DNA of 64,000 nucleotides from Escherichia coli. Lineage in GTDB: Bacteria > Pseudomonadota > Gammaproteobacteria > Enterobacterales > Enterobacteriaceae. Each line of letters starts with the position of its first letter. The stretch's first letter is position 1. The stretch is taken from the NCBI RefSeq assembly GCF_016026235.1, contig NZ_CP065613.1; one strand, given 5' to 3'. The notes under the pieces were generated by a model, which had not been told where the DNA came from, ran no database searches, and was given only the letters and a program-made list of their open reading frames with translations. This document shows, piece after piece, positions 47,312 through 48,833 of the stretch. The position numbers and the translations under genes are program-made.

Positions 47312-47317
47312 CGCTGA

Positions 47318-47331
47318 TATGACTTTCCGTG
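47318..47331. repeat. 14-bp inverted repeat TATGACTTTCCGTG, left copy, bounding the IS110-like insertion
   Basis: Perfect reverse complement of 48814-48827. Confidence 0.8.
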
Positions 47332-47378
47332 TCAAACCGGAATCTCTAATTTTGACGATTTTCTTTTTAGGTTTAATT

Positions 47379-47561
47379 CCCTGAGGGCGACGTAGCAGTA
47401 AATCCGACGGTGAATCACGCTGATATTCGCGGGTTGGATACCGCATTACAGAGGTCCGTCATATGAGCCTGCCACTTTCTTACGTCGCGAATCAGCTTTG
47501 TTCCGCCGTCGCCAAGCGCTAACGTGGGTTACTCTTGTACTGGGCTACGTCGCCTTCAGGG
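47379..47561. ncRNA. candidate structured ncRNA (bridge-RNA-like) in the 3' non-coding end of the IS110-like element
   Basis: 183-bp domain closed by 18-bp inverted repeats CCCTGAGGGCGACGTAGC / GCTACGTCGCCTTCAGGG (one G/A difference, a G-U pair in a plus-strand transcript); contains a 10-nt exact copy of the left chromosomal flank. Confidence 0.3.
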
Positions 47562-47618
47562 AACTGGTTATTCTCATTTTTTATTTGTGACATTGTGGTT
47601 GTTGTGCGACAGACATTG

Positions 47619-48707
47619 CTATTCGGCCCATATCCCAGATAAAACCCGCCAGCTCACGTGCAACAGCAACAATTGTAATATTGACATTCTTTCCTTTGGC
47701 CTGAAGTTTTCGATACCTCTTACAAAGCCTGAGTTGAGCATCCCATGCTCTGTCAATGACGGGGCGGGGTAAATTTTCCTGCCTTTTTGTATTGCCGGAC
47801 TGATGCGTGCCGGATGACGGTAACTCCACGCTGCCTCGACCAATAGCTTTCTGGCATAGCTGTTTCCGGCTTTGGTAATGCTGCCCTGATGTCTGCTTCC
47901 ACCCGATGAATATTCTGATGGCGTGATACCAAACCATGACATCAGTTGTCGTGGATGTTCAAAACGGGTCAGATCACCCAGTTCAGAAATTAATCCAACC
48001 GCAGTAATAAACTGAATCCCTCGCATGGCTTGCAGCGCCTCTACTACCGGATACAGCCTCCATTCGGTAACGGCCTCCTTCAGGGCGGATTCCAGCCGTT
48101 CACATTGTGCCTGCCGGTCTTCTATTGTACGACGGTGTTCGTCAAAAGCTAATTGTCGCCAGGGACTTTCGAATGAGTATTTGCTGAGCCAGCGTCGGTG
48201 TGCAGGGCCCCAATCTGCTCGCCCGACATAATGGACCCCATGAACCAGAAGAAACGATTTCAGACGTTGCCTTGCATGCCGTAAATCATCGCGGGCAGAT
48301 GCCCATGCCCGGGCCAAATCCCGGAATGCCTCATCTTCAATGCCGGGTACGTAGACAGCAGAAAGATCTCCTGCACGCAGTGAACGCACAAGTCTGATGG
48401 CATCACGGCGATCGGTTTTAACCCGCTCCCCCGGTTTTTTCGGGATAAGTGAGGGGGCGCAGACCATGCAGTCAAAACCGGATTTCACCAGCCGACGATA
48501 AAGTCCATAACCACAGGGCCCCGCTTCATAAACGATACTGACCTGCGATGACTTTGACCTGAGACGTTTACAAAGATTCTGAATATCAGTAGGTGATGTG
48601 CCAATTTTACCCATCAGTTCAACAGGTTCTGAATTGATAGCATAAGCGACAGTAATCGATTCTTTGTGAACATCTAACCCGACGTACAATGTGTTATTGT
48701 TGTTCAT
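47619..48707 (-). CDS. IS110-family DEDD-type transposase/recombinase
   Basis: 362 aa from MNNNNTLYVGLDVHK with GGAGG 7 nt upstream; N-terminal RuvC-like motif G-L-D-V and C-terminal ITKAGNSYARKLL segment typical of the IS110/IS1111 transposase family. Confidence 0.85.
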   Translation of the reverse strand: MNNNNTLYVGLDVHKESITVAYAINSEPVELMGKIGTSPTDIQNLCKRLRSKSSQVSIVYEAGPCGYGLYRRLVKSGFDCMVCAPSLIPKKPGERVKTDRRDAIRLVRSLRAGDLSAVYVPGIEDEAFRDLARAWASARDDLRHARQRLKSFLLVHGVHYVGRADWGPAHRRWLSKYSFESPWRQLAFDEHRRTIEDRQAQCERLESALKEAVTEWRLYPVVEALQAMRGIQFITAVGLISELGDLTRFEHPRQLMSWFGITPSEYSSGGSRHQGSITKAGNSYARKLLVEAAWSYRHPARISPAIQKGRKIYPAPSLTEHGMLNSGFVRGIENFRPKERMSILQLLLLHVSWRVLSGIWAE

Positions 48708-48813
48708 GCTGGCCTCCGTGGTGGAAATACCGGGGTGTAGCAACAGCTCACCCATGCGGCTCTGACAACGATGTTAACCCGCGTTAAATATCCCACGTTG
48801 GCCAGCATCTGTC

Positions 48814-48827
48814 TCACGGAAAGTCAT
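48814..48827. repeat. 14-bp inverted repeat CACGGAAAGTCATA, right copy
   Basis: Reverse complement of 47318-47331. Confidence 0.8.
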
Positions 48828-48833
48828 ACTGCC

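What the first reader, a model, noticed from the sequence alone, without database searches (positions are those of the whole stretch)
47312..48833. IS110-family (IS1111-like) element inserted in the short convergent spacer between pdeD and yoaE
A 362-aa DEDD-type recombinase ORF (minus strand, GGAGG Shine-Dalgarno) lies between two genes that are adjacent in K-12 as I remember it. Both neighbours keep their full expected lengths (pdeD 532 aa, yoaE 518 aa), so the whole 1.5 kb is an insertion into the spacer. It is bounded by perfect 14-bp inverted repeats (TATGACTTTCCGTG at 47318-47331, reverse complement at 48814-48827), with no direct repeats and strongly asymmetric non-coding ends (about 106 bp 5', about 287 bp 3'). 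Two readings are possible and cannot be separated here: the repeats are sub-terminal inverted repeats of an IS1111-type element, or they are the two halves of a host terminator hairpin that was split in its loop. I cannot assign it to a named IS.
Basis: partly seen in the sequence, partly recalled or inferred. Interest (0 to 1): 0.75.

Follow-up and report, generated by a model that had tools for sequence, protein, structure and literature searches.

The report
ISSso6 insertion between pdeD and yoaE
The 1.5-kb segment is a copy of ISSso6, an already catalogued RNA-guided (IS110/IS1111-type) insertion sequence. It sits in a 3-bp gap between two intact genes because that gap matches the element's own guide RNA, so the finding is real but ordinary.

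Summary
A 1519-bp insertion (47316-48834, minus-strand orientation) lies between intact pdeD and yoaE. In 5424 of 5426 complete E. coli genomes the two stop codons are only 3 bp apart.

The element is ISSso6, which ISfinder places in the IS110 family, IS1111 group. It is 99.9% identical to copies annotated under that name. Its transposase matches the ISfinder protein for residues 1-308.

The empty site has no copy of the 14-bp inverted repeats. They are therefore sub-terminal repeats of the element, not a split host hairpin. A 2-bp CT core is shared by both junctions.

The 303-nt non-coding end downstream of the transposase gene encodes a ~190-nt structured RNA (47375-47565, minus strand). Its guide segments pair with 11 nt on the pdeD side (core included) and match GTA plus the core on the yoaE side.

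The 362-aa ORF is a frameshift variant of the 375-aa ISSso6 transposase, with A5 instead of A6 at 47784-47788. The right repeat arm is 48815-48828.

The same insertion with an intact gene exists in another public assembly. ISSso6 repeatedly targets the tip of IS66-family terminal repeats, and this spacer mimics that sequence.

Verdict: already known, low interest.

The parts
47316..48834 (-). ISSso6 insertion, 1519 bp including one copy of the 2-bp core. The boundary could equally be drawn at 47314-48832.
   Evidence: The left flank matches the K-12 empty site up to 47315 and the right flank from 48833. The locus is 1519 bp shorter in 5424 E. coli genomes. The segment is 99.9% identical to copies annotated 'IS110-like element ISSso6 family transposase'.
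47314..47315 (.). Core dinucleotide CT (AG in the element's orientation), copy on the pdeD side
   Evidence: These 2 bp are shared by both junctions when aligned to the empty site. AG follows the right end in all related copies examined.
48833..48834 (.). Core dinucleotide CT, copy on the yoaE side. T48834 is also part of the yoaE stop codon.
47318..47331 (.). Sub-terminal inverted repeat, right-end arm (TATGACTTTCCGTG), 2 nt inside the element end
   Evidence: absent from the empty site
48815..48828 (.). Sub-terminal inverted repeat, left-end arm (CACGGAAAGTCATA), 4 nt inside the element end
47619..48707 (-). Transposase ORF as it reads in this copy: 362 aa. Residues 1-308 are native (D12, E61, the KTDRRDA motif, and the SG serine S268). 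Residues 309-362 are out of frame.
   Evidence: Pfam and NCBIfam hits. Residues 1-308 are identical to the ISfinder ISSso6 protein printed in the Siddiquee et al. supplement. S268 aligns with the serine of the ESG motif of IS621; that this serine is the catalytic S241 rests on Hiraizumi et al., which gives the residue number but not its alignment position.
47784..47788 (-). A5 homopolymer (T5 on the + strand) where other ISSso6 copies have A6. This is the site of the frameshift.
47581..47783 (-). Displaced coding segment for the native C-terminal 67 residues (RQENLPRPVIDRAW...IVAVARELAGFIWDM...QQPQCHK) plus the stop codon, now in the -1 frame
   Evidence: The ORF 47581-47937 appears. It aligns with the C-termini of the 376-377-aa relatives and is identical to the tail of the reference protein.
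47375..47565 (-). Bridge RNA / seekRNA gene, about 191 nt, closed by a 20-bp stem (47377-47396 with 47544-47563)
   Evidence: Fold z-score -5.95. 85% column identity with 16 homologous regions. The consensus structure has 97.3% of cells paired and compensatory changes at 5 pairs.
47515..47525 (-). Target guide 1 (5'-ACGUUAGCGCU-3'). It pairs 11 of 11 (one G-U) with the core plus the flank on the pdeD side.
47479..47483 (-). Target guide 2 (5'-GUAAG-3'). It equals the yoaE-side flank GTA plus the core AG in the element's orientation.
   Evidence: Alignment columns 82-92. GTA-AG or ATA-AG lies upstream of the left end at every ISSso6 site examined.
47417..47426 (-). Donor guide candidate (5'-AUAUCAG-3' = right-end tip plus core) followed by CGU, which equals the first 3 nt of the flank and resembles a handshake guide
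   Evidence: Exact 10-nt repeat of the junction 47311-47320 (D9). AUAUCAG is nearly invariant in relatives, which share the same end.
47394..47400 (-). Second donor guide candidate (5'-UACUGCU-3'), matching the left-end tip. This assignment is weak.
   Evidence: assigned by inference only
47330..47335 (-). -35 hexamer TTGACA in the right end. In the excised circle it would lie 17 nt upstream of CAGTAT in the left end.
   Evidence: Junction sequence built. Both hexamers are conserved in relatives. Read by eye, not experimentally tested.
48826..48831 (-). -10-like hexamer CAGTAT in the left end, the second half of the predicted circle-junction promoter
45713..47311 (+). pdeD, intact (532 aa), the left neighbour
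48834..50390 (-). yoaE, intact (518 aa), the right neighbour. It is transcribed toward the left end of the IS, in the same direction as the transposase gene.

Best explanation
The segment is a copy of ISSso6 (IS110 family, IS1111 group). It entered the 3-bp spacer between the convergent genes pdeD and yoaE by RNA-guided site-specific recombination.

Inferred mechanism, by homology to the characterised family members IS621 and ISEc11/ISKpn4/ISPa11:
- The element excises as a circle.
- Joining the right and left ends in the circle creates a promoter (TTGACA, 17 nt, CAGTAT) that drives the DEDD/serine recombinase gene.
- The ~190-nt RNA encoded downstream of that gene is most likely co-transcribed with it.
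- One module of this RNA pairs with both strands of the target. ACGUUAGCGCU pairs with the core plus the pdeD-side flank. GUAAG matches the yoaE-side flank plus the core.
- Another module recognises the element's own ends (AUAUCAG).
- Strand exchange happens at the shared CT/AG core, which therefore appears once at each junction.

Why this spacer: TAA-CGC-TTA in its context reads GTA-AG-CGTTAACGT. That mimics the element's recurrent natural target, the tip of IS66-family terminal repeats (GTA-AG-CGTCAACGG).

This copy reads A5 instead of A6 in the transposase gene. As sequenced, it encodes a protein that lacks its conserved C-terminal 67 residues. It is probably non-autonomous, although its ends and guide RNA are intact.

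Shown here: identity, boundaries, core, target consensus, conserved RNA structure, guide-target complementarity, and the frameshift. Inferred: that the RNA is expressed, the circle intermediate, promoter activity, and the loss of function.
For: Identity:
- 99.9% nucleotide identity to annotated ISSso6 copies.
- Residues 1-308 are identical to the ISfinder ISSso6 protein.
- Listed as 'ISSso6, RE, IS1111' in the Durrant et al. supplement.
- Family models are hit.

Insertion and core:
- Comparison with the empty site.

Site specificity:
- At the 22 distinct-flank ISSso6 sites tabulated (counted by hand from those tables), the left-flank side reads (G/A)TA-AG wherever that junction is available, and the right flank begins CG in nearly all. 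Some pairs of sites share one flank.
- The IS66-family terminus starts exactly at GTAAGCGTCAACGG in four unrelated contexts. It occurs in 4432 of 5426 E. coli genomes.

RNA:
- Fold z-score -5.95.
- 17 homologous regions align at 85% column identity. Variation is concentrated in the two guide segments and the hairpin between them.
- The consensus structure has 97.3% of cells paired. Compensatory changes occur at 5 pairs spread over 4 helices, and slid controls fall to 32-45% paired.

Guide-target covariation:
- Contiguous pairing runs with the element's own flank are 11, 12, 6, 6 and 5-7, against about 2-3 for other elements' flanks.
- The second guide follows the left flank: GAACAAG for flank GAACA-AG, UUAAG for TTA-AG, UUUAG for TTT-AG.
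- The guide order (top-strand match 5' of bottom-strand match, non-coding region downstream of the gene) matches what Siddiquee et al. describe for IS1111-type elements.

Frameshift:
-.
Against: - Nothing here shows that the RNA is made, or that this copy ever moved on its own.
- Rfam has no family that matches the RNA.
- The donor-binding assignment is weak. One apparent complementarity to the inverted repeat (AUAUGAC at 47458-47464) is not conserved in relatives that share the same ends.
- Three relatives (L023, L029, L030) do not fit the guide register used in the covariation test.
- One ISSso6 site (L050/L051) has a right flank that pairs poorly with the guide, 7 of 11.
- The compensatory pairs mostly separate two clades, so they reflect few independent events.
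- A5 versus A6 could be a homopolymer sequencing error rather than a real mutation.
Confidence: 0.92

Rival explanations
1. The inverted repeats are the two halves of a host terminator hairpin that was split in its loop by the insertion.
For: The neighbours are convergent genes, where a shared terminator might be expected. An 11-bp hairpin does exist nearby at 47270-47302 (I12).
Against: The empty site in K-12 is TAA-CGC-TTA with no copy of TATGACTTTCCGTG. The same repeats flank ISSso6 copies at unrelated sites. They also flank relatives in Burkholderiaceae. The nearby hairpin lies inside pdeD and is untouched.
Confidence: 0.01
2. The copy is in fact intact. The A5 run at 47784-47788 is a homopolymer sequencing or assembly error, and the real sequence is A6 encoding the 375-aa transposase.
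For: Another assembly has the same pdeD-yoaE insertion with A6 (L070). The decarboxylase-gene site holds A5 in some assemblies and A6 in others (L061 against L071/L079). Some A5 assemblies show neighbouring genes broken into pieces (L064, L065). The 375-aa product is indexed in 2016 blocks against 58 for the 362-aa product.
Against: The A5 reading recurs in many independent records, including finished chromosomes and an S. sonnei pINV plasmid. The neighbouring genes in the window (sdaA, pdeD, yoaE) have full-length reading frames.
Confidence: 0.35
3. The 362-aa product, or a full-length product restored by a -1 slip on CAA-AAA-G, is functional, and the copy is an autonomous element.
For: A -1 shift after Lys308 (AAA) restores the native reading without any gap. 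A5 copies occur at at least six distinct sites.
Against: The same sites hold A6 in other strains, so the distribution of A5 does not require A5 elements to transpose. The sequence is not a canonical X-XXY-YYZ slippery heptamer in the zero frame (read). No stimulatory structure was looked for. The lost tail is the most conserved C-terminal segment in relatives.
Confidence: 0.06

Closest known systems
ISSso6 (ISfinder entry; IS110 family, IS1111 group; Shigella sonnei)
   Same: The DNA is 99.9% identical to annotated copies. Protein residues 1-308 are identical to the reference. It has the same ends and the same 14-bp sub-terminal repeats. The same insertion at pdeD-yoaE exists in another assembly (L070).
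   Different: It is one A shorter (1519 against 1520 bp), which frameshifts the transposase gene after codon 308.
IS1111-type elements with a seekRNA: ISEc11, ISKpn4, ISPa11, ISPst6 (Siddiquee et al. 2024, PMC11187229)
   Same: Sub-terminal inverted repeats. The long non-coding region lies downstream of the transposase gene. Within the RNA, the segment complementary to the top strand of the target lies 5' of the segment complementary to the bottom strand.
   Different: The transposase is only about 28% identical to ISKpn4 over part of its length, and at 375 aa it is longer than the 330-350 aa quoted for the group. The target is different. No experimental data exist for ISSso6.
IS621 bridge recombinase and bridge RNA (Durrant et al. 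2024, PMC11208160; Hiraizumi et al. 2024, PMC11208158)
   Same: DEDD plus serine recombinase. A 2-bp CT core is shared by target and donor. The target loop is built as stem, guide, hairpin, guide. One guide pairs with the bottom strand on one side of the core and the other pairs with the top strand on the other side. Extra bases after the donor guide match the target flank, like a handshake guide. A promoter is rebuilt at the circle junction.
   Different: The RNA is in the right end, downstream of the gene, not in the left end. The sub-terminal repeats are long (14 bp). The donor-binding nucleotides sit in a multi-loop rather than an internal loop. Protein similarity is weak (E = 1.8e-5, residues 199-290 only).
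IS4321 / IS5075 (IS1111 group elements that insert into the terminal repeats of Tn21-family transposons; Partridge and Hall 2003, cited)
   Same: A habit of inserting at a fixed position inside the terminal inverted repeat of another mobile element. Here that element is of the IS66 family.
   Different: The host element and target sequence differ. The window copy sits in a chromosomal look-alike site, not in an IS66 end.

Membership tests
IS110 family (DEDD transposase / bridge recombinase elements) | N-terminal DEDD (RuvC-like) domain | tested here: met
   Pfam PF01548, residues 9-153, E = 6e-11. NCBIfam NF033542, 246.5 bits against a cut-off of 140.
IS110 family (DEDD transposase / bridge recombinase elements) | C-terminal Transposase_20 domain with the conserved G..P....SG serine | tested here: met
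   PF02371, residues 223-296, E = 1.5e-23. In GITPSEYSSGG, S268 aligns with the serine of the ESG motif of IS621.
IS110 family (DEDD transposase / bridge recombinase elements) | Site-specific insertion without a conventional target duplication; a short core shared by donor and target | tested here: met
   A 2-bp CT core at both junctions. Conserved target (G/A)TA-AG-CG(Y)T at the tabulated sites.
IS110 family (DEDD transposase / bridge recombinase elements) | Complete transposase reading frame | tested here: not met
   A5 instead of A6 at 47784-47788 shifts the frame after residue 308, so the native 67-residue tail is out of frame. This concerns whether this copy is intact, not which family it belongs to.
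IS1111 group | Sub-terminal inverted repeats of 7-17 bp | tested here: met
   14 bp, perfect, 2 nt and 4 nt inside the ends.
IS1111 group | The longer non-coding region lies downstream of the transposase gene and encodes the guide RNA | tested here: met
   303 nt against 125 nt. A conserved structured RNA lies at 47375-47565.
IS1111 group | The guide complementary to the top strand of the target lies 5' of the guide complementary to the bottom strand | tested here: met
   Guide 1 at 47525-47515 and guide 2 at 47483-47479, against the description.
IS1111 group | Transposase related over its full length to that of IS1111 | not tested
   No IS1111 protein was compared. The only data are 28.5% identity to ISKpn4 over residues 97-290 and 44% to ISEc45, which is also listed as IS1111 group. 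The group label rests on ISfinder as quoted in the Durrant et al. supplement.
ISSso6 (named element) | Near-identity of DNA and protein to the reference | tested here: met
   99.9% to annotated copies. 308 of 308 residues identical up to the frameshift, and the tail is identical in the -1 frame.
Bridge RNA of the IS621 type | A target-binding loop with two guides flanking a hairpin, complementary to both sides of the target around the core | tested here: met
   Helices at alignment columns 33-36/100-103, 40-43/93-96 and 55-58/78-81, with guides in columns 44-54 and 82-92.
Bridge RNA of the IS621 type | A donor-binding loop with two guides for the element's ends | tested here: inconclusive
   AUAUCAG matches the right-end tip plus the core, and UACUGCU matches the left-end tip. 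The predicted fold is a multi-loop, and the ends do not vary among relatives, so covariation cannot be tested.
Bridge RNA of the IS621 type | The RNA is expressed, binds the recombinase and is required for recombination | not testable with these tools
   Needs RNA-seq, co-purification and transposition assays.

The most novel reading that the evidence does not exclude
The A6/A5 run in the ISSso6 transposase gene might be a real, recurrent on/off switch. Slipped-strand loss or gain of one A would toggle the transposase, or a -1 ribosomal slip at CAA-AAA-G would rescue it. It would not then be a sequencing artefact. This would explain why the same insertion sites carry A5 in some strains and A6 in others. 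It would also mean that many Shigella copies are silenced yet still mobilisable in trans through their intact ends and guide RNA.
Probability: 0.12. Interest if true: 0.4.

Novelty: already known. Interest (0 to 1): 0.15.

Why it matters
The finding matters little beyond annotation. It shows that this genome (most likely Shigella, or an E. coli that carries Shigella-type insertion sequences) has an ISSso6 copy at a site that is empty in essentially all E. coli.

It is also a clean natural illustration of bridge-RNA/seekRNA targeting. The chromosomal site pairs with the guide better (11 of 11) than the element's habitual IS66-end target does (9 of 11).

The comparison set gathered here could serve people who engineer bridge recombinases. 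It consists of enterobacterial ISSso6 plus Burkholderiaceae relatives that share identical ends and an RNA scaffold of about 85% column identity, yet carry at least five different target guides. This was not the question asked, and the principle is already published.

Tried and rejected
- Rfam (E up to 1) over 46800-49300 gave only a spurious mir-2001 hit. That hit is the 11-bp hairpin inside the pdeD 3' end. No bridge-RNA family matched.
- AUAUGAC (47458-47464) is complementary to the sub-terminal repeat and looked like a donor guide. I rejected it because the segment varies among relatives that share the identical end.
- L029/L030 showed a 13-nt match between flank and RNA. The match falls in the conserved scaffold (columns 28-41), not in a guide. 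I left it unexplained and did not use it.
- In the covariation test, the guides of L023, L029 and L030 do not pair with their flanks in the register that fits the other five guide classes. Their core may be offset. Not resolved.
- L050/L051 is a 98.4% variant whose guide is nearly the same as the window's. Its right flank pairs at only 7 of 11 positions. This is either an off-target insertion or a later rearrangement. Not resolved.
- The consensus promoter scan found nothing upstream of the RNA on the minus strand. Co-transcription with the transposase gene is therefore assumed.
- The PDB sequence search gave only weak hits to IS621 and ISCro4. I did not run structure prediction, because it would not change the verdict.
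It returned Burkholderiaceae rather than Shigella, so the host species of the window was not identified directly.
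Full report
**Observation**

The region holds a minus-strand ORF at 47619-48707. It encodes 362 aa starting MNNNN, with GGAGG 6 nt upstream of the ATG. The ORF hits Pfam DEDD_Tnp_IS110 and Transposase_20. It also hits NCBIfam NF033542, 'IS110 family RNA-guided transposase', at 246.5 bits against a cut-off of 140.

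Perfect 14-bp inverted repeats lie at 47318-47331 and 48815-48828. pdeD (532 aa from its ATG) and yoaE (518 aa) are full length.

**It is an insertion, and where its edges are**

A 2.4-kb query spanning the locus found pdeD and yoaE in 5424 of 5426 complete E. coli genomes. In none of them was the segment present, and the locus is 1519 bp shorter. In K-12 strain RR1 the two stop codons are separated by only CGC.

Base-by-base extension shows the left flank matching up to 47315 and the right flank matching from 48833. Two bases, CT, are therefore present at both junctions. This is the behaviour of the 2-bp recombination core of IS110-family elements. IS621 also uses CT.

The empty site has no copy of TATGACTTTCCGTG. 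The repeats therefore belong to the element and are sub-terminal, 2 nt and 4 nt inside the ends.

**Identity**

- The 1.5 kb is 99.9% identical to copies in 40 E. coli genomes and their plasmids that RefSeq annotates as 'IS110-like element ISSso6 family transposase'.
- tblastn finds the same 362-aa product at 100% identity on a Shigella sonnei pINV plasmid.
- The ISfinder ISSso6 protein, printed in the supplement of Siddiquee et al. 2024, is identical to the window ORF for residues 1-308.
- The supplementary table of Durrant et al. 2024 lists 'ISSso6, RE, IS1111'. That means IS1111 group with a bridge RNA predicted in the right end.

The element is therefore named and catalogued, and its RNA has already been predicted in bulk.

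**Target specificity**

I compared ISSso6 copies at 22 distinct-flank sites. Written in the element's orientation, the sites read (G/A)TA-AG-[IS]-AG-CG(T/C)T(A)A....

Several sites lie at the end of IS66-family transposase genes. Rebuilding that empty site and searching for it found the sequence in 4432 of 5426 E. coli genomes, under tnpC of IS682- and ISEc47-like elements. In four unrelated contexts, similarity starts exactly at GTAAGCGTCAACGG. That sequence is therefore the tip of the IS66-family terminal repeat.

ISSso6 thus habitually inserts 5 bp inside that repeat. IS4321 and IS5075 do much the same with Tn21-family ends. The pdeD-yoaE spacer (TAA-CGC-TTA in context) reads GTA-AG-CGTTAACGT, which is a close mimic.

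**The guide RNA**

The 303-nt non-coding end downstream of the transposase gene contains a 20-bp closing stem (I1). The enclosed 191 nt (47565 to 47375, minus strand) fold with a z-score of -5.95.

A scan of public genomes with the 20-nt right-end tip returned 43 loci. Almost all are Burkholderiaceae, with many different flanks. Their transposases are 376-377 aa, and a Burkholderia plasmid homologue is about 73% identical to ISSso6.

Seventeen homologous RNA regions align at 85% column identity. Variation is concentrated in two short segments and in the hairpin between them.

The consensus fold has these parts:
- a closing stem;
- a target module built as stem, guide 1, hairpin, guide 2, stem;
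- a multi-loop that holds AUAUCAG.

In this fold, 97.3% of cells are paired, and slid controls drop to 32-45%. Compensatory changes occur at five pairs in four helices. These mostly separate two clades, so they are modest evidence.

In the window, the guides read as follows:
- Guide 1 (ACGUUAGCGCU, 47525-47515) pairs 11 of 11, with one G-U, to the core plus the pdeD-side flank.
- Guide 2 (GUAAG, 47483-47479) equals the yoaE-side GTA plus the core.
- AUAUCAG-CGU (47426-47417) equals the right-end tip, the core and the first three flank bases. This is like the donor guide plus handshake bases described for IS621.

Across relatives, each element's guide 1 pairs with its own flank over runs of 5-12, against about 2-3 for other elements' flanks. 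Guide 2 follows the left flank: GAACAAG, UUAAG, UUUAG.

The guide order and the downstream position of the non-coding region match what Siddiquee et al. report for IS1111-type seekRNAs. The IS66 tip pairs with guide 1 at 9 of 11 positions, and this chromosomal site at 11 of 11. That explains the insertion.

**Predicted expression**

Joining the right and left ends, as in the circular intermediate, gives TTGACA, 17 nt, then CAGTAT. Both hexamers are conserved in relatives. This resembles the junction promoter described for IS621.

No promoter-like site precedes the RNA. I therefore infer co-transcription with the transposase gene followed by processing. None of this is shown here.

**A correction: the ORF is frameshifted**

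The Burkholderiaceae relatives end in ...RGKNVNIAVVAVARELAGFIWDI... in the same frame as the rest of the protein. In the window that tail is in the -1 frame (47581-47783). The cause is an A5 run at 47784-47788 where other ISSso6 copies have A6. The reference protein is 375 aa.

As sequenced, this copy makes 308 native residues followed by 54 unrelated ones. The catalytic residues are kept, but the most conserved C-terminal segment is lost.

How common each form is:
- The 362-aa form is indexed in 58 blocks of the public collection. The 375-aa form is indexed in 2016.
- The same pdeD-yoaE insertion, with identical junctions, occurs with A6 in assembly GCA_002968185.1 (L070).
- Another site carries A5 in some assemblies and A6 in others.

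The difference therefore arises repeatedly or is a homopolymer sequencing error. I cannot tell which applies to this window.

**Verdict**

The element is the already known ISSso6, and its mechanism follows the published bridge-RNA/seekRNA model. The specifics added here are:
- the exact boundaries and the core;
- the guide-target pairing at this site;
- the IS66-end target;
- the relatives in Burkholderiaceae;
- the frameshift.

These refine the annotation. They are not a discovery.

Noticed in passing
window 47784-47788 (and 47581-47783, minus strand): The transposase gene has A5 where the ISSso6 reference and most copies have A6. This shifts the conserved 67-residue C-terminal tail into the -1 frame. 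The same insertion sites carry A5 in some public assemblies and A6 in others.
   Followed up: yes
L070 (GCA_002968185.1, PTES01000002.1:96536-98463): Another public assembly has ISSso6 at exactly the same pdeD-yoaE position with identical junctions, but with the intact 375-aa gene. The insertion is therefore shared by a lineage and is not unique to this genome.
   Followed up: partly
L055-L058; L002 1470-1500: The recurrent ISSso6 target is the outermost 13-14 bp of IS66-family elements of the IS682/ISEc47 type (GTAAGCGTCAACGG). This end sequence is present in 4432 of 5426 complete E. coli genomes.
   Followed up: yes
L003-L045 (Paraburkholderia, Caballeronia, Burkholderia, Mycetohabitans; one Enterobacter): A family of elements shares the identical 20-nt right-end tip and an RNA scaffold of about 85% column identity with ISSso6. 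They carry at least five different target guides and matching flanks, for example AG|TCC..TCGGCC and AG|AAATGACGTGCC. This looks like natural reprogramming of one scaffold, and the distribution across Enterobacteriaceae and Burkholderiaceae would fit transfer between them.
   Followed up: partly
L075 and L076 (GCA_031665325.1); L026 (Paraburkholderia domus): In these loci the right end plus AG abuts sequence from inside a bridge-RNA gene. The abutting point is at guide 1 (AG|CGCTTGGCGACGG), just after guide 2 (AG|TGGCAGGCTCAT), or just after the donor guide (ATATCAG|TGCGATCC). These look like partial tandem copies produced by recombination with guide-coding DNA that mimics the target or the donor.
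   Followed up: no
E. coli records H79-H112 (e.g. L053, L054): Sixty-nine E. coli records fall in the 90-95% identity band; all those listed carry the same ~428-bp ISSso6-like relic (right end, part of the non-coding region, 3' remnant of the gene; 94.6% identical). Three listed records carry a solo 283-bp right end with an almost complete bridge-RNA gene (89.6%) and no transposase gene.
   Followed up: partly
E. coli records H70-H77 (L052): A 95.7% variant shares the transposase gene and the 5' part of the RNA region. Its sequence is unrelated over the last ~190 bp toward the right end, and no right-end repeat was found there. It is either truncated or recombined.
   Followed up: no
window 47270-47302: A perfect 11-bp hairpin (CGGCATAATGG...CCATTATGCCG) lies inside the last codons of pdeD. 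It caused a spurious mir-2001 hit in Rfam. In the uninterrupted locus it lies just downstream of the yoaE stop codon on the other strand and might act in termination. The insertion moves it 1.5 kb away from yoaE.
   Followed up: no
window 47325-47342 (+ strand): A small hairpin followed by a T-rich tail, overlapping the right-end repeat and pointing inward from pdeD. It could stop read-through from pdeD that would run antisense to the bridge RNA. This is a consensus match only.
   Followed up: no
window 55956-56416 (-) and 35024-35109 (-): Rfam matches above the gathering score: the cspA thermoregulator (135.7 bits) and the sroD sRNA (115.2 bits). No tRNA genes occur in the window. The gene order (yoaA, fadD, yeaV, sdaA, pdeD, yoaE, then a mannose-PTS-like ORF) is the usual E. 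coli/Shigella one.
   Followed up: no
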